A stretch of 64,000 bases of DNA from Myripristis murdjan (Eukaryota): positions 24,796,745 through 24,860,744 of the forward strand of contig NC_043996.1 in assembly GCF_902150065.1 (NCBI RefSeq), in the 5' to 3' direction. Position 1 is the first letter of the stretch. Every line of letters starts with the position of its first letter. Shown here in pieces: positions 33,136 to 47,096 of this stretch. The notes under the pieces are model-generated. The model was not told the origin of the DNA. It ran no database searches and was given only the letters and a program-made list of their open reading frames with translations. Position numbers and translations under genes: made by a program.

Positions 33136-33195
33136 CTGCTGCTCCACTGCTTTAGGAGTCCTCCTGAACATGCCAGCGAACCCCGTTTTCTTTTC
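33136..33195 (-). CDS. Repeat-array exon, basic type (EKKTGFAGMFRRTPKAVEQQ; 60 nt)
   Basis: Acceptor 'ctgacacag'; donor 'cagcag|gtacga'. Shares the motif family [QE]EKGG.FSG.FKK.PK. Confidence 0.5.
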
Positions 33196-33734
33196 CTGTG
33201 TCAGAAACACACGAGGCGGTAAGACAGCGGGCATGCAGACGTGCTGGGAAAATCAAGTGGGATCACTGTGCTCGACTCACTTTTGAGGCGCCTGTCGCTT
33301 CAATCAGATTATCGGTGCTGGCTGACAGTTCACTTTGTGCTAAAAGATTGTCCTAAAAAAAAAAAAAAAAAAAAAAAAAACAAAGAGGAAAAAAGGCTCA
33401 TTTTTAAGCTTCTGTGTTGTCGGCTATCATACAGTGATATTAGGCACATTTTGGGCAGGGGAGAAGAGAAATGATTTCAGCAAAAGGCAAGAAAGAAAGA
33501 CACAAAGCTTCCTGAAGGTCACGAGTTGTTCCTGTGATTAAAATTGCTTGTGGTGATAATACACAAGGCACTTTAGGCAAATTAGAGAGAAAAAAAAATA
33601 GGCCTAAGATGCATTTTTATGGTTCCTGGCAACATGATGTTTTTTATATGAGTGAAGCCACAGTGACGAGGCGGTTCTCGTGCACGGTGTCCTGCCGGTA
33701 TTACCCGACATGGTGGCCCTCAGGTCGCTCTCAC

Positions 33735-33797
33735 CTTGGCGATGTCGGTGAGGCTGTCCCAGCTGGCCGACAGCTCCCTCGAGTCGCTGAGAGGATC
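33735..33797 (-). CDS. Repeat-array exon, acidic type (DPLSDSRELSASWDSLTDIAK; 63 nt)
   Basis: Acceptor 'ttttcccag'; donor 'gccaag|gtgaga'. Carries the LSAS.DSL motif. Confidence 0.5.
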
Positions 33798-34920
33798 CTG
33801 GGAAAAAAACAGCAGGGGTGTTAGACATCACATGTGGGCTGCATTATATTTATATTATATTTTCTAGTTCTGTTTATATTATATATACACTGTTTACATT
33901 TATATAGGCTGTTTATATTTATTACATATACGGTTTATAGTTTATACATGCTGTTTATATTTATACATATTGTTTACAATTGATATATACTGTTTATACT
34001 TATATATTTTATATTTAAATTTTTTTTTCTTTTCCTATTTTTTTTTTTTTTTTTTTTGTTACCTTGCTTTATTTATTTATTTAGGCTTATACTGGGACCT
34101 GAGTCCTAATTTCGTACCATTAACGTGTAAATGTGAGCTGGTATGACAATAAAGTTCCTTGAATCCTTAAATCCTTGATGGCTGTTGTTTTTTTCCCAAG
34201 AAAGCCTGAAGCGTGTGGCGCTGAAGCCAAACACGAAAATGACAAGGTGGAGCGTAGCACTCACACAGTCAGTAGCGGTTTTAGGCACGGGCGAAGCGGG
34301 CAGCCGCCCGGGGCGGCATATATTCATGTCACGTGGGGGGCGGCATGAGAGCAAAAAAAAAAAAAAAATCATCCTCGCTGCAAAGCAGTTTTCTATGACC
34401 GTATTCATCTGCATATAAGACAATATTTTTTCCATTGAAAATGCCCCGAAAAAACGCCCTCGTCTAATATTGGGGTCTAAGCAAACACACATGTATTGTG
34501 CTTGCATATAAACCAGTAGGTGGGCTCGCCTGATACCGCAATTACCGGCGAATGGCCGCATTGCGCAGTCAATAATCAACCATGTTGTCTGTGTCATTGT
34601 CCGCTGTGCTGCTGCAGCCGCGTATGAACAAAAGTTGATTTATAATGAGAGGATGGCAGTATGTGTGCGCCGCTCACCTGTCAGATCCGGCAGACCTGAC
34701 CGGGTGGGCGCGGCACCTGTAGGCATCAAGCCGGTGCCGCGACCGGCCCGCCTGATGCTGACCAGTGGCTTTTTTTTATGCAAACAAGATTTTGTTCATA
34801 TAAAAAGTATTTTTCCAAAAAAGGTATTTGTGCAGGTGTTGGCGCCCCTGCTCTGGGAGGGGCGCGTCTAGCCGCCAGAGGGGCACCGGTAACGGCCGTT
34901 ATCGCTTGGAAGTCCTCGCC

Positions 34921-34950
34921 TTGTGCGCGCGCGCGCGCGCGCACGCGCGG
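34921..34950. repeat. (GC)n dinucleotide tract 'gcgcgcgcgcgcgcgcgcacgcgcgg' (Z-DNA-prone) inside a GC-rich island
   Basis: Seen directly in the sequence. The flanking region 34250-35000 has far higher CpG density than the surrounding introns. Confidence 0.8.
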
Positions 34951-35448
34951 GGCTAGAACGGTAGGGCGCAAGACAGTAATTTCGCCCAGGGCGGCAACAT
35001 GGGCAGAACCGCCACTGCACACAGTTTAGAAACATATTACATAAACCTCAATTACAACATGATTTATTTGGTCATATCAGTGAAAATAATGCACCGACTT
35101 GATCTAGATGGCCTTTATTAGGACATAATGGTATAAGTGAGGTCCTGCATCTTTTTGCTTTATTTTCTGTTTCAACCTGCTTCAGTTATTTGCACATACT
35201 ATTTGACCCTGGTCTGGTTAGCATCTGCTTCTCAGATGGGAGCACAACAAGGGGTCTGAGATGTTTTTTTAAATTTTTAGTTTAAAAAATATGAGTCAGG
35301 CATAATAACTAAAACAATTAGTCTTTGCTAAGGTAGGTAAGGTCTACAAATTGAAATTGAAATTACAATTGAGAAATATCATCAGTATTAGGTTGTTATT
35401 TCAGACACTGATGGGGCTCGGTTGCACCTCTTTTTGTTTTTTTTAATA

Positions 35449-35484
<36 letters not shown>

Positions 35485-35621
35485 CCACTGGTCAGGGCAT
35501 ACTTGGCTGAAAAAATATGTCACATTCATTTTACATTACTGAAAAAAGTTTGAGAACCACTGGCGTAAAGCATGCAGATGAGAGCTCGCGTTGACAGAAA
35601 CACATTTACACACCTGATAAA

Positions 35622-35668
<47 letters not shown>

Positions 35669-35705
35669 TCAACACAAGCCAAACAGAATCACAGTATTTG
35701 CATAC

Positions 35706-35777
35706 CTTGGTGGCGACAGTGCGTGGAGCTGGTTTGGGAGACTTTTTGAAGAAGCCTGAGAGGCCTCCCGCCTTCTC
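35706..35777 (-). CDS. Repeat-array exon, basic type (EKAGGLSGFFKKSPKPAPRTVATK; 72 nt)
   Basis: Acceptor 'gtttttcag'; donor 'accaag|gtatgc'. Confidence 0.55.
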
Positions 35778-35781
35778 CTGA

Positions 35782-35820
<39 letters not shown>

Positions 35821-35923
35821 ACCGTCATCAGTGAAGGACCAGAGAAAACCAGACCGAGACGGAGAAACGGAGAACAAGGTAACATCTCCAGATAATTTAC
35901 TGGGCGTACCTTCGATGCTGTCG

Positions 35924-35992
35924 TGTCTGAGAGGTTTTCACAGCTGGCAGACAACCGGTCCATTCCTGCGTTCGACTCCTGCAACAGGAAAT
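35924..35992 (-). CDS. Repeat-array exon, acidic type (ESNAGMDRLSASCENLSDTTASK)
   Basis: Acceptor 'cctgttgcag'; donor 'tcgaag|gtacgc'. Confidence 0.55.
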
Positions 35993-36116
35993 AAAGCGCG
36001 GTACAGACTAAAGCCAGTGCAATGAGCAATGTGGCTAAGACTTTAAAGGCAAAGTTCACTTTAAATATCCTGTTTAATGTGCTGTAAACTTCTGTGTCAA
36101 GGTTGAATAAAGTCAC

Positions 36117-36183
36117 CTCATCTGCTGTAGTCTCCTCTGCTGGTTTAGGAGCCTTCTTAAATATCCCACTGAAAATATTTTTC
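36117..36183 (-). CDS. Repeat-array exon, basic type (EKNIFSGIFKKAPKPAEETTADE)
   Basis: Acceptor 'ctttag'; donor 'gatgag|gtgact'. Confidence 0.5.
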
Positions 36184-36536
36184 TCCTAAAGAAAATACAG
36201 TCAACAATACTCAGGTTACCCAAAATATATCAGCATTACAACAGTGGAGCTCTGGACAGAAGACGGACAAACTGAAATCCAAAGCTTTTAGGCAGCAACA
36301 TGTGGACTCGTGATGAATTGAAAAGCAAAATTACAGAACTTGCATAATATTCAGATTTTTTTTTTTTTTTTTTTTACAGTAAAAGCACGACAACAACCAG
36401 TGAAAACTAAATGAAACATTTTGGTTCCATTACTTGTTGCGGCAGGTTAAAATACACATTTTAAAGTTGCTTCAGGTCCCAGATCTTTCTGTTTAATTCA
36501 AAAGCAGCGATATTTCTCATCGTACCTTAGTGCTGA

Positions 36537-36590
36537 TGTTCTCCGACAGGCTGTCATTGCTTGCAAAGAGCTCTTTGTCCTGAGACAGAG
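36537..36590 (-). CDS. Repeat-array exon, acidic type (DKELFASNDSLSENISTK; 54 nt)
   Basis: Acceptor 'tgtctcag'; donor 'actaag|gtacga'. Confidence 0.55.
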
Positions 36591-36665
36591 AAGTGAACTC
36601 AATTTCAGCACATAAAAATCACAGAGGTGACGCTGTATGAGTGAATATGACACCAGACGCACGCT

Positions 36666-36737
36666 CACCTGACCAGCAGCCTCTTCTCCAGAGGCTTTGG
36701 GTGTTTTCTTGAGGAGTCCGCTGAACAGCCCTCCTTT
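36666..36737 (-). CDS. Repeat-array exon, basic type (EKGGLFSGLLKKTPKASGEEAAGQ; 72 nt)
   Basis: Acceptor 'tgttcaccag'; donor 'ggtcag|gtgagc'. Confidence 0.55.
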
Positions 36738-37013
36738 CTCCTGGTGAACAGAGAGAGGGGTTAGACTAGGGAAAAAAAAAACAAGTAAATTTAATGCGAA
36801 TTCTGAAATTCCCATTAAACTGTGGTGAGGTCAATCAAAAAATTCCAACCAACAGTATATTGCAGATTTTGAACAGTCCTTGCATTAAGATAAAAGCGCC
36901 TTTCGTTAAGTCCCGCCCCAACATCCAGTTTCAACAGGATTTGAATCAAATTCAAGGAAGCAAGATGCTTTTTCAGTCCTGCTCCAGGCCGTGACGTGTG
37001 ACACTGACCTCAC

Positions 37014-37076
37014 TGTCAAACAGGTCGTCAGTGCTGGCGGACCTCTTGAATATGCCGGACAGGCCTCCCTTCTTCT
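37014..37076 (-). CDS. Repeat-array exon, basic type (EKKGGLSGIFKRSASTDDLFDSE)
   Basis: Acceptor 'ctgttttag'; donor 'agtgag|gtcagt'. Confidence 0.45.
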
Positions 37077-37401
37077 CCTAAAACAGACACTTCAGTTATT
37101 TCAGAAAACTTAATGTTCGCAAAAACAAGAGGAAAACGGGTTCAGCGTGGTTTCCACCATCTGATCAGAACCACAAAGCAGATTTAACTCATTTTGCTAC
37201 TGAATTATGAGGATCCCTTGGGAAAGGTAATGAACTGTGAACATAGTAATACAATAATAAGAACATAATGTTAAGCTTTATGAGCAGTTTAAGAGCAATG
37301 CAAGATTAAAGTAAAATTAAGATAATATTAAAACAGAAAAATAAAAGATGCAAGAGGGAAGATCTTCTATAAGACCAAGCTGAGAGAAAAATGAGAATGA
37401 A

Positions 37402-37473
37402 CCTTGGGGACGGTGGTTTGTATGAGATTCTCACAGCTTCCAGAGATCTGCTCTCGGCTGCTCTCCTCCAGCT
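37402..37473 (-). CDS. Repeat-array exon, acidic type, copy 4 of the tandem unit (ELEESSREQISGSCENLIQTTVPK)
   Basis: Acceptor 'ggactcag'; donor 'ccccaag|gttcat', which is a weak donor. Confidence 0.4.
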
Positions 37474-37561
37474 CCTGAGTCCAGACAGAAAAAGGTGAAC
37501 ACACAAACGCTCGGTCCTCAGGATACAAATAATGAGAGTTTTAAAAACTGTGGTCAAATAC

Positions 37562-37630
37562 CTCGTCTGTTGTGGCTCCATCAGCTGGTTTCTGTGGCTT
37601 CTTAAACATGTTGCTGAAGATGCTTTTCTC
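37562..37630 (-). CDS. Repeat-array exon, basic type, copy 4 of the tandem unit (EKSIFSNMFKKPQKPADGATTDE)
   Basis: Acceptor 'catgtttcag'; donor 'gacgag|gtattt'. Confidence 0.5.
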
Positions 37631-37924
37631 CTGAAACATGACAGAAATGATTTGAACAAAAAGGTTTTCTCATTTTATCTACAAGAGCGCATTCAGGTAT
37701 CAGGAAAGGCAAAAAAATGATATTTTAACATCTCTACTATAAACACAGTGAAGCAATGTAAACAGAATTATCATCTCATATTGTCTGTTTCATGTTGCAT
37801 ATTTTTATGGGAAGCATCTTTGGGTCTCTTGAAATCCCCTATGTAAATTTAAATTCTTCTTCTTCTTAATATACTCTTATCTCTACATGATCAGGTGTTA
37901 ATATTCACAAAGAAAGACAAAAAT

Positions 37925-37995
37925 GAGAATGAACCTTGGGGACGGTGGTTTGTATGAGATTCTCACAGCTTCCAGAGATCTGCTCTCGGCTGCTC
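37925..37995 (-). CDS. Repeat-array exon, acidic type, tandem copy 3
   Basis: Near-identical to 37402-37473 and sits inside the ~535-bp tandem unit. Confidence 0.4.
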
Positions 37996-38103
37996 TCCTC
38001 CAGCTCCTGGGTCCAGACAGAAAAAGGTGAACACACAAACGCTCGGTCCTCAGGATACAAATAATAAGAATTTAAAATTAAAATTAAAATTTTTGTTCAC
38101 ATA

Positions 38104-38173
38104 CCTCGTCTGTTGTGGCTCCATCAGCTGGTTTCTGCGGCTTCTTAAACATGTTGCTGAAGATGCTTTTCTC
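38104..38173 (-). CDS. Repeat-array exon, basic type, tandem copy 3 (EKSIFSNMFKKPQKPADGATTDE)
   Basis: Carries the same flanks as 37562-37630. Confidence 0.5.
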
Positions 38174-38458: not shown

Positions 38459-38530
38459 AATGAACCTTGGGGACGGTGGTTTGTGTGAGATTCTCACAGC
38501 TTCCAGAGATCTGCTCTCGGCTGCTCTCCT
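38459..38530 (-). CDS. Repeat-array exon, acidic type, tandem copy 2 (ELEESSREQISGSCENLTQTTVPK)
   Basis: Tandem-unit copy. Confidence 0.4.
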
Positions 38531-38627
38531 CCAGCTCCTGAGTCCAGACAGAAAAAGGTGAACACACAAACGCTCGGTCCTCATGATACAAATAATGAGC
38601 AACTTTTAGATTTGGTTCACATACCTC

Positions 38628-38696
38628 GTCTGTTGTGGCTCCATCAGCTGGTTTCTGCGGCTTCTTAAACATGTTGCTGAAGATGCTTTTCTCCTG
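38628..38696 (-). CDS. Repeat-array exon, basic type, tandem copy 2
   Basis: Tandem-unit copy. Confidence 0.5.
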
Positions 38697-39004: not shown

Positions 39005-39076
39005 ATGAAAATGAACCTTGGGGACGGTGGTTTGTATGAGATTCTCACAGCTTCCAGAGATCTGCTCTCGGCTGCT
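39005..39076 (-). CDS. Repeat-array exon, acidic type, tandem copy 1
   Basis: Tandem-unit copy. Confidence 0.4.
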
Positions 39077-39176
39077 CTCCTCCAGCTCCTGAGTCCAGAC
39101 AGAAAAAGGTGAACACACAAACGCTCGGTCCTCATGATACAAATAATTAGAATTTTAAAAACTGTGGTCAAATACC

Positions 39177-39245
39177 TCGTCTGTTGTGGCTCCATCAGCT
39201 GGTTTCTGCGGCTTCTTAAACATGTTGCTGAAGATGTTTTTCTCC
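39177..39245 (-). CDS. Repeat-array exon, basic type, tandem copy 1 (EKNIFSNMFKKPQKPADGATTDE)
   Basis: Tandem-unit copy with one substitution (S to N). Confidence 0.5.
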
Positions 39246-39339
39246 TGAAACATGCCAGAAATGAATTTGAAGGTGTGACTGAAAAGTGCCTGTCTGGTCA
39301 TTTTACCTGCAGGAGCTCGTCACAAAGCGACTCACTTTA

Positions 39340-39405
39340 CTGCTGCTGTTCTCAGACAGGTTGTCCCTGCTGGACGAGAGCTCTTTCTGGGCGTCTTTGT
39401 CCTGA
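39340..39405 (-). CDS. Repeat-array exon, acidic type (DKDAQKELSSSRDNLSENSSSK)
   Basis: Acceptor 'ctgtttcag'; donor 'agtaaa|gtgagt'. Confidence 0.5.
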
Positions 39406-39490: not shown

Positions 39491-39561
39491 CCTGTGAATC
39501 GGCCTTTTCTCCAGGCGCTTTGGGGGTCTTTTTGAGGAGCCCGCTGAACAGCCCGCCTCTC
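39491..39561 (-). CDS. Repeat-array exon, basic type (ERGGLFSGLLKKTPKAPGEKADSQ)
   Basis: Acceptor 'tgcaccag'; donor 'tcacag|gtgaga'. Confidence 0.55.
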
Positions 39562-39676
39562 TCCTGGTGCACAGACAAACAAATATTTACATATCAAAAG
39601 GTGAATTATCAAATGGTCATTTTACTGAAACAAATGAATCACAAACCCAGTTCATTTAGTCTGAAACCCTGACCGA

Positions 39677-39736
39677 CCTTGTTGTCAGATAAACTCTCAT
39701 TGCTGGCAGAGAGCTCGCCATGCAGAGACTCCTTAT
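39677..39736 (-). CDS. Repeat-array exon, acidic type (DKESLHGELSASNESLSDNK)
   Basis: Acceptor 'ctacag'; donor 'aacaag|gtcggt'. Confidence 0.5.
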
Positions 39737-39892
39737 CCTGTAGAAAAATAAATAAATCACAAATAACCATGAAACTTGCAGTAATAGCAAATGTTATGCA
39801 GTCAAGACTCAGTAAAAATGACAAAAATTTGGAAATAAATGGAGTTGCTGCTGTAAACAGTGTCCAAGGAAAAATGCTGCAATTATGATTTA

Positions 39893-40084: not shown

Positions 40085-40345
40085 ATGTATTTATTTATTT
40101 ATTTCTGTTTTTATTCATGCATTTATTTATTTATTTGTGTATTTATACATTTATGCATGTATGTATTTATTTATTTCTACATTTATTTATTTATATATTC
40201 ATTTATTTATACATTTATTTATTTATTTGTGTATTTATATATTTATTTTTACATTTATTTATTTAGATTTTTATTTATTTATACATTTATTCATTTATTT
40301 ATTCCTTCATGTACATTTATTTATTTATTCCTACATTTATGCAGT
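40085..40345. repeat. Low-complexity (TTTATTTA / TTTAC)n tract of about 260 bp
   Basis: 'tatttatttatttctgtttttattcatgcatttatttatttatttgtgtatttatacatttatgcatg...' It creates spurious Leu/Ile/Tyr/Phe ORFs (40085..40429 and 40137..40439). Confidence 0.85.
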
Positions 40346-40644
40346 CAAGAACAAACAAATTTCCAAACAAAATTTGGAAATAAATGGAGTTGCTGCTGCA
40401 GTGTCCAGGGAAAAATGCTGCAATTATGATTTAAAATAAATAAATAAATAAATAAAATCCACTGCTTTTTCCACTCAAAACAACACAAACAGTGTAAATG
40501 AGGATACAAACAATATAAAGGTTGGGATAACAGAGGAGGAGGGGTTCTTTTGAAAATGAAACCGAAATAGAAACAATGCAGTGTAACAGTTTATCTTTAT
40601 AACTGAGCACTGCTCCAGACAGCGGACCAGAAAAATGTACTTAC

Positions 40645-40698
40645 CTCTTCAGGTTTAGGAGACCTCCTGAACATTGCACTGAATATTCCTCCTTTCTC
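40645..40698 (-). CDS. Repeat-array exon, basic type (EKGGIFSAMFRRSPKPEE)
   Basis: Acceptor 'gtgtttcag'; donor 'gaagag|gtaagt'. Confidence 0.55.
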
Positions 40699-40787
40699 CT
40701 GAAACACACACACGATGAGGGTTATCTTGGGGAAATGTGAAGCTGATCAGTGTAAATTGCAGGTAAAAGGATGCAGGTAAACTCACG

Positions 40788-40853
40788 GTGGTGCTGTTCT
40801 CACACAGACTGTCGCTGCTGGCTGAGAGCCTGCCGTCTCCGGGCTGCTTGTCC
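40788..40853 (-). CDS. Repeat-array exon, acidic type (DKQPGDGRLSASSDSLCENSTT)
   Basis: Acceptor 'cctgtcag'; donor 'accacc|gtgagt'. Confidence 0.5.
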
Positions 40854-41089
40854 TGACAGGAGATCACATCAGTCAGGAATTTTTACCCACAACAGCTAAA
40901 AATGGCCTTCCACTTAATAATTACAACAGTCTCTTAAGGTTTATTTAAACAGGGAAGCACAGAAATTTCTCAAGGATGCCTTGCTCAAGAGCAGGAGTAA
41001 AGAGAGTTAGTCATTCAGTTACTGTAAAAAATAATAATAATAATAAAAAAAATAAAATACTGTAATGAAAGTAGAGGTGAAACTGCACA

Positions 41090-41164
41090 CCTCCTCTGTG
41101 TGAGGATCATCTGCGAGTCGGGACGTCTTCTTCAACTTTACGCCGAACACGCTTCCTTTCTCCT
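41090..41164 (-). CDS. Repeat-array exon, basic type (EKGSVFGVKLKKTSRLADDPHTEE)
   Basis: Acceptor 'gtgtttcag'; donor 'gaggag|gtgtgc'. Confidence 0.5.
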
Positions 41165-42370
41165 GAAACACCAAGGAGCTGCTCAGTTGAATTAATTGAA
41201 ATGTACCTGAATTAAAGCTACATTTTCCCCTTTTTAAATGGGTAAAAAACTGGTAAAAAAAAAAAAAAAAAAAAAAACAAGGCCAAAAACGACTGAGGTG
41301 TTTACCACTTACTGCTGTGCTTCTCACTTCTGTCTCCTTTATGGAAATTTGATTTAAAAATCTGTATCCTTTACCAAATCAGTATCATTCCACCTTATAA
41401 CCACAAACAAATGAGATCATTGTGGAGGAGACCATCAACCGCTCTGCTGTATTTCAAATCATTTACCACCAGGCTTCAGATTTCATGAGAAAACTGCTTT
41501 AGGGCACAAAAACAGAGAAGCGGGATCTGTTCTTAAAGGGAAAACATGAATTTCAGTTTTATGCGATGGTGGATTAAGTGAAAGGCTGATGGTGGAAAAA
41601 AATCACTTCAAACATGTCGATCCTCTTTAAAACAGGATAAAAATGCACACCAGGAAACGAGACCCTTCTTGCTGTTGACTGGCAGCAACATCACAAAGGC
41701 TCATGGGAAGTGTAGTTTTCATTTTGAAAGACAGAATCATGGACTGCACGTGTGGCCTGAGATATAGAGACTTCAAACACTACATAAGTACCATCTTTGA
41801 TGAAAACTGACTGTGTTTCAAACAAATCACATTTCTGTTAAGCAGTGTTGTCTTTAACTTGTCGCATTACATTCATCTGTAACGCAGTAATGTAACATGT
41901 TACCGTTCCTTAATCCATTAATCACATTACAGTTACAAATCAAACAATTGTGGTGTTTCTTGAGCTACATAAGTTCTCTGCATAACAGGTGGGAGAGACG
42001 ACAAAATGACAGAGCGGTCTACAACTTCTGAGGTGCGGCCATCTGCACATTACTGAGAACTTGTTGAACTGAGGTATTAATTATTAAAGAGCATCAAAGA
42101 GATAATTTGTGTATGCCCTTTACATTAAGATGGAGATTTGTGCTGATTCGTAGGCAGATGTAAGGTTTATCATCACACTGTTAACTGGCAGAACATGAAG
42201 ATGCAGCTCAGGTGATGTTGTGGAGTAACACAAATAATGTACTTTCCACAGGTGGTAACTAAGAAAAGCAACGCATTACTTTTTAAAACACTAACGAGTA
42301 ATGTGTACAATACATGACATTACAACAGTGGTTTTTAGACGCACGGGTTTCTGACGGTGGCAGTGACTCA

Positions 42371-42443
42371 CCTTGGTGTTGCTGCTGCTCTCAGACAGGC
42401 TGTCGCTGCTGGCAGAGAGATCTTTCTGAGCAGAGAGATTCTC
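42371..42443 (-). CDS. Repeat-array exon, acidic type (ENLSAQKDLSASSDSLSESSSNTK)
   Basis: Acceptor 'ttgtttcag'; donor 'accaag|gtgagt'. Confidence 0.55.
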
Positions 42444-42700
42444 CTGAAACAAAACGACAGCGGAGTAAATCATAATCATAAATCATCAAAGTGAGGTGAA
42501 AGAGCGGTCAACATCCACGAAGGAAACTGCTCCAACAGCTCATGGTCTGTCATGTTGTGAAACCCCTTCGCTCAGTGTTGGATCTATACAGAGCAGCAGC
42601 TGTTTCTGAGAGAGTGAGAAGCTGTGTGGTTTGTTTGGACGGTCTGCAGAAAAAAAACGAACCGTTCTGCTGTGTTTGTGGGATGCAGACCCACCTGCGC

Positions 42701-42762
42701 CTCTCCGGGGGCTCGGGGCGTCTTCCTGAGGAGCCCGCTGAACAGCCCGCCTCTCTCCTGTG
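42701..42762 (-). CDS. Repeat-array exon, basic type (ERGGLFSGLLRKTPRAPGEAQ)
   Basis: Acceptor 'agccacag'; donor 'gcgcag|gtgggt'. Confidence 0.5.
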
Positions 42763-43026
42763 GCTGAAAACACAGCACAACAGCTTTAAAGCACTCAGAC
42801 GACTTACGCTCCTGAATTTCAAAGGTAACGTCATTTTTCCAGCCACGGCCCCAGACAGGTTTCAGGGGAAAAAAAAACAAAACAAAACCACCACCAGAAA
42901 AAGAAAAAAAAAAAACAATCCACCCCCGGGTCTATTTTCATGTTCGTCACAGTGACTCATCAGGTTTCTGTGGGTGTCTGGTTAGTTTTCTGAAAGTTTA
43001 AACACAGCTTTGTAATTTAGACTTAC

Positions 43027-43087
43027 TTTGCTCTCTGACAGACTGTCATTGCTGGCAGACAGCTCGCTGTGCAGCGACGCCTTATCC
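43027..43087 (-). CDS. Repeat-array exon, acidic type (DKASLHSELSASNDSLSESK)
   Basis: Acceptor 'ttttgcag'; donor 'caaag|taagtc' (boundary ambiguous by ±1 nt). Confidence 0.45.
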
Positions 43088-43929
43088 TGCAAAAAAAAAA
43101 AAAAAAGAAGAAGAAGTTAGCAAACATGAGTAAACACAACAAACACCGACAAACATGACACTGATAACGGAGGCAGACAAACAGGGATGAATTCTGGGTA
43201 AAATAAGACTTGACTGAATGGCACTCGGCAGGAAACTCACTCTGTAATTTCCTTGATATAAGTTTTTTAATGCCAGAATTTATTCATTTATTTATGGTTC
43301 TCCTTATTCTTGTGTGAATGATATTGCTAATAGTGTTGTAATATACAGAGGACACTGTTTTTGTTTTGTTTGTTTGTTGCTGCGACTTTCCCTTTCAATA
43401 AAATTTAAGTCCTGAAATAAATGACAGTATAATTACAGTAAAATTAGAATAATTTCATTGATTCATCTCTGTTTATCTCAATCAGTCAAGATGTGTAACA
43501 GTACTGATGGCATAGATTGACATTTCACCTGAAATGAGATTAGATTAGATACAATTAGATGAGAATAGATTAGATTAGATTAGATTAATTGACACTTTTA
43601 TGATTCTAGTGGTGCAATTGGGCCCCAGCATTGGGAAACAGTTAATAATAAAATAATAAAATAATAATAAAATTACAAAGGAATAGAACAAATGGCAGTT
43701 ATTTAAAAATATAAAACTGACGCATCAACACTCATTTTATATTAAAGTATGTAAAAAAAAAAAAAGTCAGCATGAGGCTTGCCAAAGGCTTGCCCTGTTC
43801 AAAATCATGCATCTTGTAGGAATGAAACTCCTTTCTTAAAAAAAAAAAAAAAAAGCGATTTAAGTTAGAAAACGGAGGATGAGCACAGCAAGTCAAAAGT
43901 CGGGGCTAAGGACAAACGTTTCCAGTCAC

Positions 43930-44002
43930 CTCGTCTTGTTGGGGGGCTTCAGACGTTTTGGGCGTTTTCTTGAACATTCCTCCGAACACACTTCCTTTCT
44001 CC
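43930..44002 (-). CDS. Repeat-array exon, basic type (EKGSVFGGMFKKTPKTSEAPQQDE)
   Basis: Acceptor 'gttcattag'; donor 'gacgag|gtgact'. Confidence 0.5.
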
Positions 44003-44150
44003 TAATGAACAGAAAAAAAAACTGGGTGTCTGTTTGGCTCTAACTTCTTTGTAAAGACGAGACAGGGATGTGTAAAGCTGCAAAAATCTGATTAAACTGT
44101 TTGTTATACGGACAGTGATGAACTGAAGGATCTGGATGCTCTCTGTACCT

Positions 44151-44210
44151 TGTTGTTGCTGTTCTCATTCAGACTGTCGCTGCTGGCTGACAGCTCACTC
44201 TGCTTGTCCT
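44151..44210 (-). CDS. Repeat-array exon, acidic type (DKQSELSASSDSLNENSNNK)
   Basis: Acceptor 'gtgtttcag'; donor 'aacaag|gtacag'. Confidence 0.55.
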
Positions 44211-44512
44211 GAAACACAAATCAGAAAAAAAAAACAGTTGAGTCAAATGAGACAGATATGACAAATCGATGTATTTATGCCATTTCAGTGGTTTATGATT
44301 TGATCAATCAATGGAAATCCACCCTTTGGTCCAATCAGCAACAAGAACAGCATCATTAAATCTGGACCAGAGGTGTTACAGTCAGCTTTAAATTGTGAGT
44401 CAGCTACAATGCATCTACATGCTATGTTTTTTGGCATAGAAGTTACTATCACACTATCACACTTAAATCTCCATCGCCCCCATGTGTAGATTTCTCTGTC
44501 ACACACACATTA

Positions 44513-44586
44513 CCTGCCCAGGTGTCACCTCTCCAGGTGGCTTGGGAGACTTGCGAAGGATCCCGCTGAAAAATCCCCCCTTTTCC
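44513..44586 (-). CDS. Repeat-array exon, basic type (ERGGFFSGILRKSPKPPGEVTPGQ)
   Basis: Acceptor 'gtcagcag'; donor 'gggcag|gtaatg'. Confidence 0.5.
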
Positions 44587-44688
44587 TGCTGACATCACAC
44601 CAGTTAGTTGTATTAGCAGAAGCCGTTACACAACAATATGAGCATAATCCCATGAATTCACAGATGAATACTTCCAAACGCACCTTTG

Positions 44689-44751
44689 AGGTTTCAGACA
44701 GATTGTCGCTACTGCCCGACAGATCGCTGTGCAACGACTGCCGGTCCTGAG
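44689..44751 (-). CDS. Repeat-array exon, acidic type (DRQSLHSDLSGSSDNLSETSK)
   Basis: Acceptor 'gtctctcag'; donor 'tcaaag|gtgcgt'. Confidence 0.55.
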
Positions 44752-45574
44752 AGACAAAACGAACAGAGTCAGTACAAACATCAGGCAACAAGATTTGTCC
44801 AGTGATACTTGACCTTTTTGGCTCTGCATGAATAACTGAATTTTAATAATTTAACAGCTGATGACACAAACGCAGGCAGCTTGACTCATTCAGATTCAGT
44901 GAAAATCACGACTTTTCAAGCAAAATGTAACTGGGCAGATACACAAAGAGCTTTTTTGTGATAAAGATAATATTCAACAACATTTCTGGATAAGGATTTT
45001 TTTTCGATTTTCTCCTGTTTTTTTGCTCTTATGTATAGGCTATGTTTTGAAGGGGATGCAGTTTATTGCAACCATTACTCTGGTGTGGCCGGCAACACTC
45101 TGCGGCCACTGAATCACCGTCATTTCACAACCACAGGAAAGATTAGTCAGACACACTTCTGTCACGACATCGAACTACACATGCTGTCAAAAAGATTTGT
45201 TTAGTCCCAAAAGCTGCAACGCCTGTCAAGCGATGGTAAAATGACCAATGGGACGGCTGTGAAGACATTAAATGAACTTGGATATATAGACATACAGACA
45301 GACAGATGCACTTTATTGATCCATAATGCAACATTGCACAGGGATAATAATAAAGGCTGCACATATATGCCTTTCAGCACTAGAAGAGAGAAATAAATAT
45401 CTTTAGAAAAGTAAATACAACAAAGAACAAAATAAAATAAAGTAGGTCAATGCAAAGAATATGAGAAAAAAAAACTTCTCATACCTTATAAGAGTAATAA
45501 AATAAGTTAAACATACTAAAATATATGTATAGGTTATCTATAAAGCATTCAGTGAACGTCATTACCTCTTCAGG

Positions 45575-45647
45575 TGGAGCGGCTTCTGTTGTTCTGGGAG
45601 ATTTCTTGAACATCCCACTGAATATTCCTCCTTTCTCCTGAGGCAGA
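45575..45647 (-). CDS. Repeat-array exon, basic type (EKGGIFSGMFKKSPRTTEAAPPEE)
   Basis: Acceptor 'ctgcctcag'; donor 'gaagag|gtaatg'. Confidence 0.55.
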
Positions 45648-45764
45648 CACACGAAATAACTGTTTTTGTCAGGTGAATGACGGCCTGCATGTTTTTATGT
45701 CTGCACTATAATGACTTGCATTATCTCGGCTCTCATGTCAGGTAAATGTGGAGCTGCTCACCTT

Positions 45765-45823
45765 GCCGTTGTTCTCCGACAGGCCGTCGCTGCCGGCTGC
45801 CGGCTCGCTCAGATCCTCCTGAA
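45765..45823 (-). CDS. Repeat-array exon, acidic type (EDLSEPAAGSDGLSENNGK)
   Basis: Acceptor 'ctgcttcag'; donor 'ggcaag|gtgagc'. Confidence 0.5.
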
Positions 45824-45994
45824 GCAGCAAACATCAGTAAAATGAAATAAACACAGGCGGAAATATTTATTGCTATACATTGTGTGGTGGAAGACTTTAT
45901 CCAAAACACCTCATGTTACCAGATAAAAAGGCATTTTCAGCGTTTTAGTTTCAGAGGGTGGGAAGAAATCACTGTTGGGTCTAGTTCACCTGTG

Positions 45995-46060
45995 CAGCCG
46001 CCTCATCTGCTGGTCTGTGGGATTTTTTCAGAATGCCAAAGAAGCTTCCTTTCTCCTGCA
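45995..46060 (-). CDS. Repeat-array exon, basic type (EKGSFFGILKKSHRPADEAAAQ)
   Basis: Acceptor 'ctctgcag'; donor 'gcacag|gtgaac'. Confidence 0.5.
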
Positions 46061-46809
46061 GAGGGAGAAAAAAATTGTTTTCAACACGTTTTTAAAAGTG
46101 TTGCATAAAACACAACACTTGACGAGTGTCCGAATGTCTATCATGAGTAGAATCAGACCCATAAATCTGGAGTTTATGCCCTGACTGATACACCCAGAAC
46201 CGCATCACATGAACAACTAAATCTGATATTTGATCCAACATGGATTCACATCTACATTCTCATTGATTTTATTTATTTTATTGTCATTACAAACTTAATT
46301 GTGCTTATTTTAGGATCATCATTTATCCCTGGTTTCTATGCACTTCCATATTTTTTGTACTTTTAAATCCAAGAGTTTGCACCTTTAGTGGCATTGTGTT
46401 TGTTTGACATGAGATCATTATGTATTTGCCTTTAATTTAATCATTTTTTATATTTGCGTTTGTATATGTGGTCATTTCCTTTACTCAAATTTCATCTGCT
46501 TTATGTGAGTTTATTTCTTTTATGCGTGCTTGACATCGAGTTACATGGTGCACATTTTTTATTTTTATTCTGTAAATCCTTGAACCTGGAAAGGACTTTT
46601 GCTTGAGCTTGAAAAGTGCAATATAATTAAAAAATACTATTATCATTATTATAATATAGATTCAGATGTACATTGTCATTGCACACCCTTCATATTACAC
46701 CAGCTGACAGACGCTGGTCAGTTTTTTATTAATTTGCATGATTATTTGACTGCGTCTCAAACTGAACTACAACAAGAGAAGCCGCTGAAACAAAACCTAC
46801 ATGTGTGTG

Positions 46810-46869
46810 TTCAGATGTTTTCTCCTCTGCGTCATCGGCGTCACTGTCCACTGTGCTGACCTGGCAGAC
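46810..46869 (-). CDS. Candidate array exon, divergent acidic type (VSTVDSDADDAEEKTSEHT)
   Basis: Acceptor 'gtctgccag'; donor 'acacat|gtaggt'. Weaker match to the family. Confidence 0.3.
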
Positions 46870-47007
46870 ACAAAAAAATAACATTGACATGAGTCCAGAA
46901 TATTCTGTCAGCAGCAGATTCAGAAACGAAGCACTGAGAGGAAAAGGGTTAGTGAGAGCAAGAACGAGACCGGGAGTGAAATTAAATATCAAACGACGGA
47001 GAGAGCC

Positions 47008-47096
47008 GATGTTACCGTCACTGCAGGAGACGGAGCTTTCTCTTTCTCTTTGGGTGTTTTCCTGAACATCCCGGCGATGAGGCCTCCTTTGTCCTG
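47008..47096 (-). CDS. Repeat-array exon, basic type (DKGGLIAGMFRKTPKEKEKAPSPAVT)
   Basis: Acceptor 'tgttccag'; donor 'tgacg|gtaaca'. Confidence 0.4.

What the first reader, a model, noticed from the sequence alone, without database searches (positions are those of the whole stretch)
33136..47096. Expanded array of about 40 alternating phase-0 mini-exons encoding basic and acidic Ser-rich modules
On the minus strand, short exons of 54-75 nt recur every 150-900 bp. Every one has a length that is a multiple of 3 and is flanked by canonical AG|...|GT sites. They alternate strictly between two types. The first type encodes [QE]EKGG[LIVF]FSG[LMI][FL][KR]K[ST]P[KR]..(E/A-rich). The second type encodes D[KR].(S)L(H)[SG][ED]LSAS[SN]DSL[SC]E[NS]...K. 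Every exon is symmetric (phase 0-0), so any subset can be spliced together or duplicated without breaking the frame. This is the signature of exon-duplication-driven expansion of an intrinsically disordered, amphipathic, heavily phosphorylatable (CK2-like SxxS/E sites) repeat protein. I cannot confidently assign the motif to a named family; the basic module is loosely reminiscent of MARCKS or AKAP12-type lipid or calmodulin-binding basic motifs. In a fish, so large and regular an array sitting immediately upstream of an ApoL pore-forming domain is unusual.
Basis: partly seen in the sequence, partly recalled or inferred. Interest (0 to 1): 0.8.

Follow-up and report, generated by a model that had tools for sequence, protein, structure and literature searches.

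The report
Mini-exon repeat array of fish ApoL gene
The alternating mini-exons are real and form the disordered N-terminal half of a conserved teleost gene for a roughly 1,800-residue ApoL-domain membrane protein, so the array is a larger-than-usual copy of an ordinary but unstudied fish gene feature, not a one-off oddity.

Summary
On the minus strand, 34 mini-exons (47093-33136; 54-78 nt) are all multiples of 3 with AG/GT flanks. They comprise 18 basic-hydrophobic 'A' and 16 acidic Ser-rich 'B' modules. A 35th, A-like exon lies at 50457-50392. The count is 34, not about 40, and alternation breaks three times.

The array belongs to one 50-exon gene (53121-24847). Its exons join into an uninterrupted 1,784-aa ORF: N-terminal region, array, linker, Pfam ApoL domain, charged tail. 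The window matches Myripristis murdjan.

Orthologues ('apold1a', 'apolipoprotein L1-like') occur across teleosts, from eels to percomorphs, with 14-25 modules in full-length models. Two further paralogue families, one partly in this window, carry related arrays. The array is therefore ancestral, and here only about 1.4-fold enlarged, partly by four tandem A'/B' di-exon units.

The mini-exons are under purifying selection: about 1% exon versus 8-13% intron divergence between tandem units, and dN/dS 0.20 against Cottoperca. AlphaFold2 predicts disorder. No Pfam, PDB or literature match exists for the modules.

Function is inferred: a multivalent basic-hydrophobic membrane- or partner-binding tether with phosphorylatable acidic spacers. 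CK2-site enrichment, helical amphipathicity and charge blockiness were tested and not supported.

The parts
53074..53121 (-). First coding exon (ATG): MEQCMVKPEVKRKPKP
   Evidence: Matches orthologue N-termini MEACM...; donor GT; part of the in-frame 50-exon model
52518..52544 (-). N-terminal exon: PKPPPKPAE
52298..52366 (-). N-terminal exon: INGNEPAKVGKPTPVVPPRPTDA
50699..50758 (-). N-terminal exon: ELNATTRHRHHKKVQAEDTQ
   Evidence: 82% identical to Perca
50392..50457 (-).
   Evidence: Profile hit at 11 bits; AG/GT flanks; orthologous to Cottoperca P0006 residues 116-136
49090..49167 (-). N-terminal exon: SYVIKDGDEEEKTEDLPAKQAPSGKQ. Its counterpart is alternatively spliced in Solea and Pholidichthys isoforms
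48513..48563 (-). N-terminal exon with a degenerate A-like motif: GVLKGVMKGLQIRPSPK
47667..47771 (-). N-terminal exon: TSREPSPDPSADEPPPGKENSSENTKQDKPAEPKA
47016..47093 (-). Array exon 1, type A (78 nt): DKGGLIAGMFRKTPKEKEKAPSPAVT
45990..46055 (-). Array exon 2, type A (66 nt): EKGSFFGILKKSHRPADEAAAQ
45762..45818 (-). Array exon 3, type B (57 nt): EDLSEPAAGSDGLSENNGK
45566..45637 (-). Array exon 4, type A (72 nt): EKGGIFSGMFKKSPRTTEAAPPEE
44684..44746 (-). Array exon 5, type B (63 nt): DRQSLHSDLSGSSDNLSETSK
   Evidence: 76% identical to its Cottoperca counterpart
44514..44585 (-). Array exon 6, type A (72 nt): EKGGFFSGILRKSPKPPGEVTPGQ
   Evidence: 92% identical to its Cottoperca counterpart
44149..44208 (-). 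Array exon 7, type B (60 nt): DKQSELSASSDSLNENSNNK
43930..44001 (-). Array exon 8, type A (72 nt): EKGSVFGGMFKKTPKTSEAPQQDE
43027..43086 (-). Array exon 9, type B (60 nt): DKASLHSELSASNDSLSESK
42695..42757 (-). Array exon 10, type A (63 nt): ERGGLFSGLLRKTPRAPGEAQ
42372..42443 (-). Array exon 11, type B (72 nt): ENLSAQKDLSASSDSLSESSSNTK
41091..41162 (-). Array exon 12, type A (72 nt): EKGSVFGVKLKKTSRLADDPHTEE
40787..40852 (-). Array exon 13, type B (66 nt): DKQPGDGRLSASSDSLCENSTT
40645..40698 (-). Array exon 14, type A (54 nt): EKGGIFSAMFRRSPKPEE
39678..39737 (-). Array exon 15, type B (60 nt): DKESLHGELSASNESLSDNK
39492..39563 (-). Array exon 16, type A (72 nt): ERGGLFSGLLKKTPKAPGEKADSQ
39336..39401 (-). 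Array exon 17, type B (66 nt): DKDAQKELSSSRDNLSENSSSK
39176..39244 (-). Array exon 18, type A' (69 nt), tandem unit 1: EKNIFSNMFKKPQKPADGATTDE
39017..39088 (-). Array exon 19, type B' (72 nt), tandem unit 1: ELEESSREQISGSCENLIQTTVPK
38625..38693 (-). Array exon 20, type A', tandem unit 2: EKSIFSNMFKKPQKPADGATTDE
38466..38537 (-). Array exon 21, type B', tandem unit 2: ELEESSREQISGSCENLTQTTVPK
38105..38173 (-). Array exon 22, type A', tandem unit 3
37935..38006 (-). Array exon 23, type B', tandem unit 3
37562..37630 (-). Array exon 24, type A', tandem unit 4
37403..37474 (-). Array exon 25, type B', tandem unit 4
37009..37077 (-). Array exon 26, type A (69 nt): EKKGGLSGIFKRSASTDDLFDSE. Has 1:1 orthologues in notothenioids, Perca and Cottoperca
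36669..36740 (-). Array exon 27, type A (72 nt): EKGGLFSGLLKKTPKASGEEAAGQ
36526..36579 (-). Array exon 28, type B (54 nt): DKELFASNDSLSENISTK
36117..36185 (-). Array exon 29, type A (69 nt): EKNIFSGIFKKAPKPAEETTADE
35910..35978 (-). Array exon 30, type B (69 nt): ESNAGMDRLSASCENLSDTTASK
35706..35777 (-). Array exon 31, type A (72 nt): EKAGGLSGFFKKSPKPAPRTVATK
33735..33797 (-). Array exon 32, type B (63 nt): DPLSDSRELSASWDSLTDIAK
33281..33352 (-). Array exon 33, type B (72 nt): DNLLAQSELSASTDNLIEATGASK
33136..33195 (-). Array exon 34, type A (60 nt): EKKTGFAGMFRRTPKAVEQQ. Last array exon
32277..32351 (-). Linker exon: DSEDMEPPEGGSQLRRRRTIKKKRR (polybasic)
31900..31962 (-). Linker exon: VVSFRVKKTLPRIPKLNFNTQ
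31201..31263 (-). Linker exon: SSDKLPILEETVEMQPVNTTQ
29930..30004 (-). Linker exon: ESTVEIQPVEMAAYPTEGNPLDSEE
29774..29813 (-). Linker exon (40 nt): ENDGLMDWWKSVE, first half of the Trp-rich motif conserved in all three paralogue families
29489..29540 (-). Linker exon (52 nt): (G)WTEWNETSNFQEEDEE(M)
27645..28059 (-). ApoL domain exon 1, containing the first hydrophobic hairpin
   Evidence: PF05461, E 8.7e-22; 88-90% identical to notothenioid and Perca orthologues; hydrophobic segments in the model
24847..26625 (-). Last exon: second half of the ApoL domain, an acidic coiled segment, a Lys/Glu/Arg-rich tail of about 450 aa, the C-terminal ...EDGLYI, and the stop codon
   Evidence: PF05461, E 2.5e-08; GC skew -0.28

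Best explanation
What it is (shown). The feature is the N-terminal repeat region of a single protein-coding gene of about 28 kb and 50 exons on the minus strand (53121 to 24847). The gene is the Myripristis murdjan-type orthologue of the teleost long ApoL-domain protein that automated pipelines name 'apold1a', 'apolipoprotein L1-like' or 'uncharacterized'. If all exons are included, the product is 1,784 aa. It consists of a Pro/Lys-rich N-terminus with no signal peptide, then 34 one-module-per-exon repeats (763 aa), a polybasic and Trp-rich linker, an ApoL domain with two hydrophobic hairpins, and a long Lys/Glu/Arg tail.

The two modules are position-specific linear motifs conserved across teleosts. 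Module A is E-K-G-G-phi-F-[SG]-G-[MI]-F-[KR][KR]-[ST]-P-K-P followed by an acidic or Pro-rich tail. Module B is L-S-x-x-S-E-L-S-[AG]-S-[NS]-D-[SN]-L-[ST]-[ED]-N. Nearly every exon of the gene is symmetric, so the array grows and shrinks by tandem duplication of A+B di-exon units. Four such units are present here, and other lineages have independent ones. The copies remain under purifying selection.

How it most likely works (inferred, about 35-40% confidence for this step). The ApoL hairpins anchor the protein in a membrane, with the disordered array in the cytosol. Each A head carries four hydrophobic residues, including two Phe, plus three or four Lys/Arg (net +3). It would act as a weak basic-hydrophobic contact for acidic membranes or for a partner protein. 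Tandem repetition would give avidity and reach. The acidic, Ser-rich B modules and the conserved [KR][KR][ST]P site would provide phospho-tunable spacing or release.
For: Gene identity and structure:
- All 35 mini-exons are multiples of 3 with AG/GT flanks.
- The 50 exons join into one ORF of 5,355 nt with no internal stop.
- The ApoL domain is confirmed by Pfam.

Orthology:
- 160 homologues were found, most of about 1,000 aa with PF05461.
- Exon-for-exon matches exist to Notothenia, Dissostichus, Cottoperca, Perca, Tautogolabrus and Anableps.
- Synteny with the second paralogue is conserved in Cottoperca.
- Full-length orthologues of 1,450-1,703 aa carry 14-25 modules.

Expression of the architecture:
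- Uninterrupted cDNA contigs carry A/B modules joined to ApoL, for paralogue 2.

Selection:
- Between tandem units, exons differ at 1-2 of 141 sites and introns at 30-48 of about 380 sites (Fisher p = 1.7e-5, 1.2e-3 and 1.8e-5).
- dN/dS is 0.20 at dS 0.77 against Cottoperca, compared with 0.07 for the ApoL exon.

Motif specificity:
- Logos were built from 498 unique A and 392 unique B copies. K2 is 99% conserved, G8 92%, K15 93%, S10 of module B 99% and L14 of module B 98%.
- [KR][KR][ST]P occurs 10 times, against 0.2 expected.

Disorder and topology:
- AlphaFold2 gives pLDDT of about 30 across the modules.
- There is no N-terminal hydrophobic stretch, and the only hydrophobic segments lie in the ApoL domain.

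Charge:
- Every A head has net +3 to +4. A tails are mostly -1 to -4 (range -4 to +2), and B modules are -1 to -4 (mostly -2 to -3) with 3-10 (mostly 5-8) Ser/Thr each.

Weak resemblance:
- There is a sub-threshold Pfam match to the FtsA C-terminal membrane-targeting helix.
Against: - No transcript data for this species or this paralogue's array were available. The species' own product is absent from the protein collection.
- The membrane-binding mechanism is untested. The helical hydrophobic moment of A is not better than shuffles (7-16% of shuffles reach it), and charge patterning without phosphorylation is not blocky (SCD z = 0.28).
- CK2 minimal sites are not enriched.
- The position-specific conservation of Gly, Pro and Lys is stricter than non-specific membrane binding would need, which favours a specific partner.
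- The dN/dS estimate used only exon pairs that were easy to align, so it is biased low.
- One or two N-terminal exons seen in orthologues (ELSxTQYRMKK...) were not found, so the 5' part of the model may be incomplete.
Confidence: 0.8

Rival explanations
1. The modules are specific protein-binding short linear motifs rather than membrane binders. On this reading the array is a multivalent scaffold that recruits a partner, for example endocytic or trafficking adaptors or calmodulin, to the ApoL membrane domain.
For: - Conservation is position-specific, including Gly, Pro and Lys positions.
- The homologous arrays of the other two paralogue families embed NPF tripeptides, the classical EH-domain ligand, in their basic-hydrophobic modules: KVNPFKS in apold1b, and KLNPFRS and RHNPFMPR in paralogue 2.
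- Helical amphipathicity of A is not significant.
Against: - This gene's product contains no NPF.
- Modules A and B match no Pfam, NCBIfam or PDB entry.
- No partner is known.
- A basic and aromatic composition is also what non-helical membrane binders such as the MARCKS effector domain use (from general knowledge).
Confidence: 0.3
2. The array is a composition-driven entropic spacer or spring, like the titin PEVK region. Only length, charge and disorder matter, and exon number tunes length.
For: - AlphaFold2 predicts disorder.
- There is one module per symmetric exon, and module number varies between species and, in paralogue 2, between isoforms.
- Basic and acidic modules alternate, as do the PPAK and poly-E modules of PEVK (from general knowledge).
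Against: - Residue-level conservation across about 500 A copies and about 400 B copies is much stronger than a purely compositional constraint would give.
- Charge patterning is not distinguishable from shuffles.
- dN/dS is 0.20.
Confidence: 0.1
3. It is a secreted acidic phosphoprotein for biomineralisation, as the automated names 'starmaker-like', 'dentin sialophosphoprotein-like' and 'dentin matrix acidic phosphoprotein-like' suggest.
For: The region is Ser/Asp/Glu-rich, and automated names were given to orthologues.
Against: - There is no signal peptide. The maximum Kyte-Doolittle 9-residue average in the first 40 aa is -0.21.
- The array is fused to a membrane-inserting ApoL domain.
- S-x-x-[DE] sites are not enriched.
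- The automated names disagree with each other (titin, piccolo, dao-5, ATRX and others), which indicates compositional matches.
Confidence: 0.03
4. The array is non-functional (pseudo-exons or a decaying minisatellite), or it is a separate gene unconnected to the ApoL domain.
For: - Some annotations split the locus into a repeat-only model and an ApoL model: Cottoperca P0006 and P0030, and Anableps P0001.
- This species' product is absent from the collection.
Against: - Exon conservation is about 10 times higher than intron conservation between tandem units.
- dN/dS is 0.20.
- No stop codon occurs in any of the 34 exons, and the 50-exon ORF is continuous.
- Only 278 bp separate the two Cottoperca models.
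- Single full-length models exist in Perca, Solea, Sardina, Scomber and Pholidichthys.
Confidence: 0.03

Closest known systems
Teleost 'apold1a' / long ApoL-domain proteins in RefSeq and UniProt (for example Sardina pilchardus XP_062386586 'apold1a isoform X2', 1,703 aa; Solea senegalensis XP_043885659, 1,627 aa; Notothenia coriiceps XP_010770098-102; Perca fluviatilis XP_039670600)
   Same: - The order of parts is the same: MEACM-type N-terminus, alternating A/B modules, polybasic and Trp-rich linker, ApoL domain (85-95% identical), Lys/Glu/Arg tail ending ...EDGL(N/Y)I.
- The 3' array exons match 1:1.
- The tandem neighbour, paralogue 2, is the same.
   Different: - This locus has 34-35 modules against 14-25 in other full-length models.
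- It includes a lineage-specific fourfold A'/B' di-exon duplication.
- Its product is not in the searched protein collection.
The two other teleost paralogue families: 'apolipoprotein L1-like' (paralogue 2, partly in this window at 57.7-64 kb; M. murdjan XP_029930316) and 'apold1b' (M. murdjan XP_029931911)
   Same: Both have an N-terminal array that alternates basic-hydrophobic modules with the same S(L)HSELSASxDSLxD acidic module, then a Trp-rich linker and an ApoL domain.
   Different: - ApoL domains of paralogue 1 and paralogue 2 are only about 45% identical.
- Paralogue 2 and apold1b carry NPF-containing modules that are absent from this gene.
- Paralogue 2 has fewer modules per model (6-14).
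Mammalian APOLD1 and the APOL1-6 family (Pfam PF05461)
   Same: They share the ApoL domain with hydrophobic hairpins. As with most intracellular APOLs, there is no signal peptide (PMC8557400 for topology and family history).
   Different: As I recall the mammalian proteins, which are about 280-400 aa, they have no A/B array. This was not tested here. The published family history traces APOLD1 only to amniotes and does not mention teleost long forms.
MARCKS effector domain and AKAP12 polybasic domains (basic and aromatic membrane- and calmodulin-binding segments with phospho-switches)
   Same: There is a compositional resemblance in the clusters of Phe/Leu and Lys with nearby Ser/Thr (for example ...LSGFSFKK... 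against ...LFSGMFKK...). The proposed electrostatic and hydrophobic membrane contact is similar.
   Different: - No sequence-family match was found: there were no MARCKS or AKAP12 Pfam hits even at E <= 1.
- There is no N-terminal myristoylation Gly; the N-terminus is MEQC.
- The motif is Gly-rich and is repeated 18-19 times, interleaved with acidic modules.
- The phospho-site is proline-directed ([ST]P), not PKC-type.
Arrays of symmetric mini-exons that encode disordered repeats: titin PEVK (PPAK and poly-E exons) and the 54-bp exons of fibrillar collagens (from general knowledge)
   Same: These also have one repeat module per short phase-0 exon, expansion by exon duplication, and alternation of basic and acidic module types (PEVK). 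Exon number is a tunable parameter.
   Different: There is no sequence relationship. The protein context differs (a membrane ApoL protein rather than a sarcomeric spring or a triple helix). Differential splicing of this array has not been demonstrated.

Membership tests
ApoL family (Pfam PF05461), for the gene product as a whole | A significant match to the ApoL domain profile covering the pore-forming and membrane-addressing region | tested here: met
   Exon 28059-27645 scores E 8.7e-22 (profile positions 49-172). Exon 26625-24847 scores E 2.5e-08 (profile positions 222-297). Both exceed the 25.9-bit cut-off. The array itself lies outside the domain.
Teleost apold1a-type long ApoL protein (orthologous group) | Collinear architecture: MEACM-type N-terminus, A/B array, RRRRTIKKKRRVVSFRVKK linker, (M/L)(D/E)WW..V.GW.EWNE motif, ApoL domain, charged tail | tested here: met
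   Exon-by-exon tblastn matches to P0002, P0004, P0009, P0017, P0030, P0006, P0261 and P0153. The assembled 1,784-aa ORF is continuous.
Teleost apold1a-type long ApoL protein (orthologous group) | The ApoL domain is closer to paralogue-1 proteins than to paralogue 2 or apold1b | tested here: met
   Identity is 85-95% to the paralogue-1 class and about 45% to the paralogue-2 class.
Teleost apold1a-type long ApoL protein (orthologous group) | Conserved synteny: tandem position downstream of the 'apolipoprotein L1-like' paralogue on the same strand | tested here: met
   In Cottoperca gobio LR131924.1 the order is paralogue 2, then P0006, then P0030. The window shows the same order.
Teleost apold1a-type long ApoL protein (orthologous group) | Transcripts join the array exons to the ApoL exons in this species | not testable with these tools
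   No RNA data for Myripristis were available. The cDNA contigs found belong to paralogue 2 of other fishes. RefSeq full-length models exist for other species.
MARCKS / MARCKS-like | Match to the MARCKS family profile, an N-terminal myristoylation site (Met-Gly), and a single Lys-rich effector domain with PKC serines | tested here: not met
   No MARCKS Pfam hit at E <= 1. The N-terminus is MEQC. The motif is repeated 18-19 times and its Ser/Thr is followed by Pro.
AKAP12 (gravin/SSeCKS) | Match to AKAP12-specific profiles (WSK motif) and a PKA RII-binding helix | tested here: not met
   No such Pfam hit on the 785-aa conceptual repeat protein at E <= 1, and none among 45 orthologues.
SPAR/SIPA1L C-terminal domain (PF11881) | A consistent profile match across family members | tested here: not met
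   Only the Albula glossodonta protein matched, 1 of 45, through summed weak hits of identical B modules. The window's protein has no hit.
Secreted acidic phosphoproteins (starmaker, DSPP, DMP1; the SCPP type) | An N-terminal signal peptide, and secretory-pathway kinase sites (S-x-E) or CK2-type sites in excess | tested here: not met
   There is no hydrophobic N-terminal segment. S/T-x-x-D/E sites number 32, against 28.5 +/- 4.3 in shuffles. S-x-E sites were judged by eye only.
Exon-duplication array of symmetric mini-exons (architectural class, not a homology family) | One module per exon, every exon a multiple of 3 in the same phase, and tandem duplicated units that include the introns | tested here: met
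   34 of 34 array exons are phase 0-0. Four di-exon units of 520-553 bp align across their exons and introns.

The most novel reading that the evidence does not exclude
All three teleost long ApoL-domain paralogue families share an ancestral N-terminal array that has not been found outside teleosts. On the most novel reading, this array is a phosphorylation-switchable, multivalent tether that controls where and when an ApoL membrane or channel domain acts. Module number, set by exon duplication and possibly by cassette splicing, would serve as an evolutionary and developmental rheostat. The A module and the NPF modules of the paralogues would be variants of a single previously undescribed trafficking or membrane-binding motif.
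Probability: 0.15. Interest if true: 0.6.

Novelty: new member of a known kind. Interest (0 to 1): 0.4.

Why it matters
ApoL proteins matter for innate immunity and for APOL1 kidney disease, yet what regulates their membrane activity is poorly understood. The published family history traces APOLD1 only to amniotes (PMC8557400).

Teleosts turn out to carry three conserved long ApoL-domain genes. In each, the N-terminal half is a modular array with one motif per exon, and neither motif has a Pfam family, a solved structure or a publication that I could find.

This gives a natural system in which motif valency varies from 2-3 modules (cyprinids) to 35 (here). That makes a membrane-tether or scaffold hypothesis for ApoL regulation directly testable. 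The locus is also a clean example of exon-duplication dynamics under purifying selection.

On the practical side, automated names for these genes (starmaker-like, piccolo, titin homolog, dao-5-like and others) are compositional artefacts. Several genomes split the gene or fail to annotate it.

Tried and rejected
1. Amphipathic-helix reading of module A. The helical hydrophobic moment is 0.37-0.50, and 7-16% of shuffles reach it, so it is not significant. AlphaFold2 predicts no helix.
2. Blocky polyampholyte or coacervation reading. The sequence charge decoration score is not different from shuffles (z = 0.28) without assuming phosphorylation.
3. CK2 enrichment. Not supported (z = 0.8).
4. SPAR_C relationship of module B. 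Only 1 of 45 orthologues matched.
5. FtsA_C and AP205_coat Pfam matches. These are sub-threshold repeat artefacts.
6. PDB and NCBIfam searches with four di-exon units. No hits.
7. Zebrafish 'apol1' of the nephropathy literature. It is a small 2.6-kb locus with a different architecture.
8. Literature searches for apold1a, the motif strings, and APOLD1 with zebrafish. None described the array.
9. Handing the spliced conceptual protein to the exhaustive search.
10. Retrieving the M. murdjan genomic locus and its annotation through P0079 and P0321. Neither is on record.
11. Retrieving the Perca locus through P0009. Not on record.
12. Rfam and tRNA scans of the window. Nothing found.
13. Logan cDNA contigs. 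I expected them to prove splicing of this array, but they belong to paralogue 2.

Full report
**1. The observation**

I translated the minus strand and searched for the two peptide patterns. A strict search gave 14 A-type and 10 B-type matches on the minus strand between 33.1 and 47.1 kb. The plus strand of the whole 64-kb window gave 0 A and 1 B-like match. Profile HMMs built from the clear copies then recovered every module. All hits above 20 bits lie on the minus strand inside 33.1-47.1 kb.

The nucleotide context shows the same anatomy for each copy: a pyrimidine tract, a YAG acceptor, an open frame whose length is a multiple of 3, and a GT(R)AG donor.

The final inventory in the stated range is 34 exons of 54-78 nt, comprising 18 A and 16 B. 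The B set includes four divergent B' copies (ELEESSREQISGSCENLIQTTVPK) that the first pattern search missed. A 35th, A-like exon lies upstream at 50457-50392. Introns are 85-1908 nt, median 238.

Alternation is the rule but is broken three times. A follows A at 47093/46055 and at 37077/36740, and B follows B at 33797/33352.

The corrections are 34 exons rather than about 40, and imperfect alternation.

**2. The gene it belongs to**

Pfam finds an ApoL domain (PF05461) in two downstream minus-strand exons at 28.06-27.65 kb and 26.6-24.8 kb. It also finds one in a separate ORF at 58.7-57.75 kb.

A search of the large protein collection with the conceptual repeat protein returned 160 relatives. 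Most are about 1,000 aa, carry PF05461, and come from fishes. Their automated names are inconsistent: 'apolipoprotein L1 isoform X..', 'apold1a', 'starmaker-like', 'dao-5-like', 'titin homolog', 'piccolo' and others. This shows the names are compositional.

The homologues carry the same alternating A/B modules at the N-terminus.

Mapping the closest proteins onto the window shows that the window holds two tandem paralogues.
- **The array gene.** The array belongs to the gene whose ApoL domain is at 28-24.8 kb. Its N-terminal exons lie at 53.1-47.7 kb and six linker exons at 32.4-29.5 kb.
- **The second paralogue.** The ApoL ORF at 58.7 kb is the last exon of a second paralogue. That paralogue's own A/B array must lie beyond the window's end.

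After I fixed the splice boundaries, 50 exons join into one ORF of 5,355 nt (1,784 aa). It has no internal stop, and every junction is AG/GT. 47 of the 50 exons are multiples of 3. One or two N-terminal exons seen in orthologues were not found, so the 5' end of the model may be incomplete.

The paralogue-2 exons are 100% and 99.7% identical to Myripristis murdjan XP_029930316. The window is therefore from that species or a near-identical relative. No identical product of the array gene is in the collection.

**3. Conservation and distribution**

The 3' part of the array (37.1-33.1 kb) matches orthologues from Notothenia, Dissostichus, Cottoperca and Perca exon for exon. Several 5' exons also have 1:1 counterparts.

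In Cottoperca gobio the locus has the same gene order. Its 'repeat-only' and 'ApoL' gene models are separated by only 278 bp, so they are one gene that the annotation split.

An exhaustive phmmer search of 1.84 billion representatives with the Anableps orthologue found only 65 matches. Every hit whose organism I identified is a teleost: moray and conger eels, sardine, a catfish, opah, soles, mackerel, saury and others. The set includes full-length RefSeq models of 1,450-1,703 aa with 14-25 modules.

Classifying homologues by ApoL domain shows two old classes that are about 45% identical to each other. A third family, apold1b, has its own array. In it, a variant basic-hydrophobic module (KQNPGMFKGMMQKVNPFKSS) alternates with the same acidic module. 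Cyprinid apold1a, including zebrafish si:rp71-1g18.13, retains only 2-3 degenerate modules.

The two-module array is therefore ancestral to the teleost long ApoL genes. The locus in this window has the most modules of any model I examined, about 1.4-fold above the 20-25 modules of the largest full-length orthologues. It is not qualitatively unusual.

**4. Evidence that the exons are functional coding sequence**

Four tandem A'/B' di-exon units of 520-553 bp lie at 39.2-37.1 kb. Among the three fully comparable units, exons differ at 1-2 of 141 sites. Introns differ at 30-48 of about 380 sites (Fisher p = 1.7e-5, 1.2e-3 and 1.8e-5).

For ten collinear mini-exons compared with Cottoperca, dN/dS is 0.20 at dS 0.77. 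The ApoL exon gives 0.07. The exon pairs were chosen for ease of alignment, so this ratio is biased low.

Two short contigs assembled from sequencing runs carry uninterrupted ORFs that join A/B modules to an ApoL domain. They are spliced mRNAs, but of paralogue 2.

Within-species RefSeq isoforms of paralogue 2 differ by exactly one or two A+B units, 47 or 94 aa. Isoforms of paralogue 1 in Solea and Pholidichthys keep the whole array and vary only in N-terminal non-array exons. For this gene the array therefore looks mostly constitutive. Combinatorial splicing is possible in principle but has not been shown.

**5. What the modules are**

Logos were built from 498 unique A and 392 unique B copies across teleosts.
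- **Module A** is E-K-G-G-phi-F-[SG]-G-[MI]-F-[KR][KR]-[ST]-P-K-P. K2 is 99% conserved, G8 92% and K15 93%.
- **Module B** is L-S-x-x-S-E-L-S-[AG]-S-[NS]-D-[SN]-L-[ST]-[ED]-N. S10 is 99% conserved, L14 98%, and L7 and S8 91-92%.

These are position-specific linear motifs, not merely biased composition.

None of Pfam, NCBIfam or the PDB sequences recognises them. A SPAR_C hit is confined to one species.

AlphaFold2 on an orthologue with a 30-sequence alignment gives pLDDT of about 30 and no secondary structure across the modules and linker. The ApoL domain is predicted helical, at low confidence.

The product has no signal-peptide-like N-terminus. Its only hydrophobic segments are the ApoL hairpins.

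**6. Mechanism**

What is shown is a disordered N-terminal extension of a membrane-inserting ApoL protein. By inference it is cytosolic. It is built from conserved motifs, one per exon, and it expands by di-exon duplication under purifying selection.

What is inferred is the following. Each A head has four hydrophobic residues, including two Phe, plus three or four Lys/Arg, with net charge +3 to +4 in every copy. I propose that it acts as a weak basic-hydrophobic contact for acidic membranes or for a partner protein, and that tandem repetition supplies avidity. The B modules have net charge -1 to -4 (mostly -2 to -3) and 3-10 (mostly 5-8) Ser/Thr each. Together with the conserved KK[ST]P site (10 observed against 0.2 expected), they would supply phospho-tunable spacing or release.

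Three quantitative tests gave no support for the simplest versions of this idea.
- The helical amphipathicity of A is not significant.
- Charge blockiness without phosphorylation is not significant.
- CK2 minimal sites are not enriched.

The strict conservation of Gly, Pro and Lys positions, and the NPF tripeptides in the homologous modules of the two other paralogue families, keep a specific protein-binding scaffold as a serious rival.

I put about 95% on the gene-level identification. I put about 35-40% on membrane tethering as the mode of action.

**7. Comparison with what is known**

The closest known entities are the automatically annotated teleost apold1a orthologues, which have the same architecture with fewer modules.

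Mammalian APOLD1 and APOL1-6 share only the ApoL domain. The published family history traces APOLD1 to amniotes and does not mention teleost long forms. The zebrafish 'apol1' used in nephropathy models is a small, different locus.

MARCKS and AKAP12 resemble module A only in composition, and their membership features were tested and not met.

Architecturally, the closest analogues are other arrays of symmetric mini-exons that encode disordered repeats, such as titin PEVK with its alternating basic PPAK and acidic poly-E exons. This comparison rests on general knowledge, and there is no sequence relationship.

I found no paper describing these modules or the array.

**8. Verdict**

The finding is real and correctly described in outline. 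Its claim of unusualness does not hold. It is the largest copy I saw of a conserved, teleost-wide, automatically annotated but unstudied gene feature.

I class it as a new member of a known kind, of moderate interest. The value lies in the uncharacterised motif pair, its wide natural range of valency, and its attachment to a medically relevant membrane domain.

Noticed in passing
window 57751-58734 (-), with upstream exons at 58889-58942, 59194-59235, 60029-60106 and 63223-63279: This is a second, tandem ApoL-domain gene (paralogue 2). Its exons are 100% and 99.7% identical to Myripristis murdjan XP_029930316, 'apolipoprotein L1 isoform X1'. Its own A/B array must lie beyond the window's end (above 64000). 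Exon 63279-63223 encodes TKVKKPKRHNPFMPRTAAK, and the full protein has five NPF tripeptides, which are classical EH-domain ligands.
   Followed up: partly
proteins P0257 (M. murdjan), P0250 (Chanos) and P0253 (Synaphobranchus); not in the window: A third paralogue family, 'apold1b', has an N-terminal array of KQNPGMFKGMMQKVNPFKSS modules alternating with the same SLHSDLSASSDSLTD-type acidic module. This suggests that the A module and the NPF module are variants of one ancestral motif.
   Followed up: partly
window 24847-53121 (-): Neither protein search retrieved an identical product of the array gene, although the neighbouring paralogue's M. murdjan proteins are present. The gene may be unannotated or mis-annotated in that genome. 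In Cottoperca the orthologue is split into two gene models 278 bp apart.
   Followed up: partly
window 6056-6400 (+): An ORF contains an RNA-recognition motif (Pfam RRM_1, E 7.7e-14). By eye it resembles an hnRNP C or RALY-type exon, so it is probably an exon of a neighbouring plus-strand gene.
   Followed up: partly
window 24847-26200 (-): The last exon encodes a tail of about 450 aa that is extremely rich in Lys, Glu and Arg, and it ends in ...EDGLYI. The C-terminal ...EDGL(N/Y)I is conserved in orthologues even though the tail evolves fast (57% identity to Cottoperca over the whole exon). The region shows the window's strongest GC skew (-0.28).
   Followed up: no
window 28572-28910 (+), inside the intron between exons 29489 and 28059: A 112-aa ORF (MFYRSFIESVITFSFICWF...LLNNRRKR) has no Pfam hit. 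It looks like a fragment of a repeated element, possibly transposon-derived.
   Followed up: partly
window 40085-40329; also 35560-35700 and 35780-35830: Simple repeats lie inside array introns. There is a (TATT)n / 72-bp array at 40.1-40.3 kb, and (GT)n tracts directly flank A exon 35777-35706. Long poly-T tracts serve as pyrimidine tracts for several acceptors, for example at 43086 and 33352.
   Followed up: no
protein P0034 (Albula glossodonta), residues 225-255: The B module (EIASIHGELSASNDSLSDIDTK) gives a summed Pfam SPAR_C (PF11881) score of 39.9 bits, above the cut-off. None of the 44 other orthologues scanned does so. This is probably an artefact of identical repeats, but a shared short motif with SIPA1L proteins has not been excluded.
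   Followed up: partly
window 35250-35276 and 40534-40566 (-): Weak A-like profile hits (KFKKTSQTP and FGFIFKRTPPP, 4-6 bits) lie inside the two long introns. They may be remnants of decayed modules.
   Followed up: no
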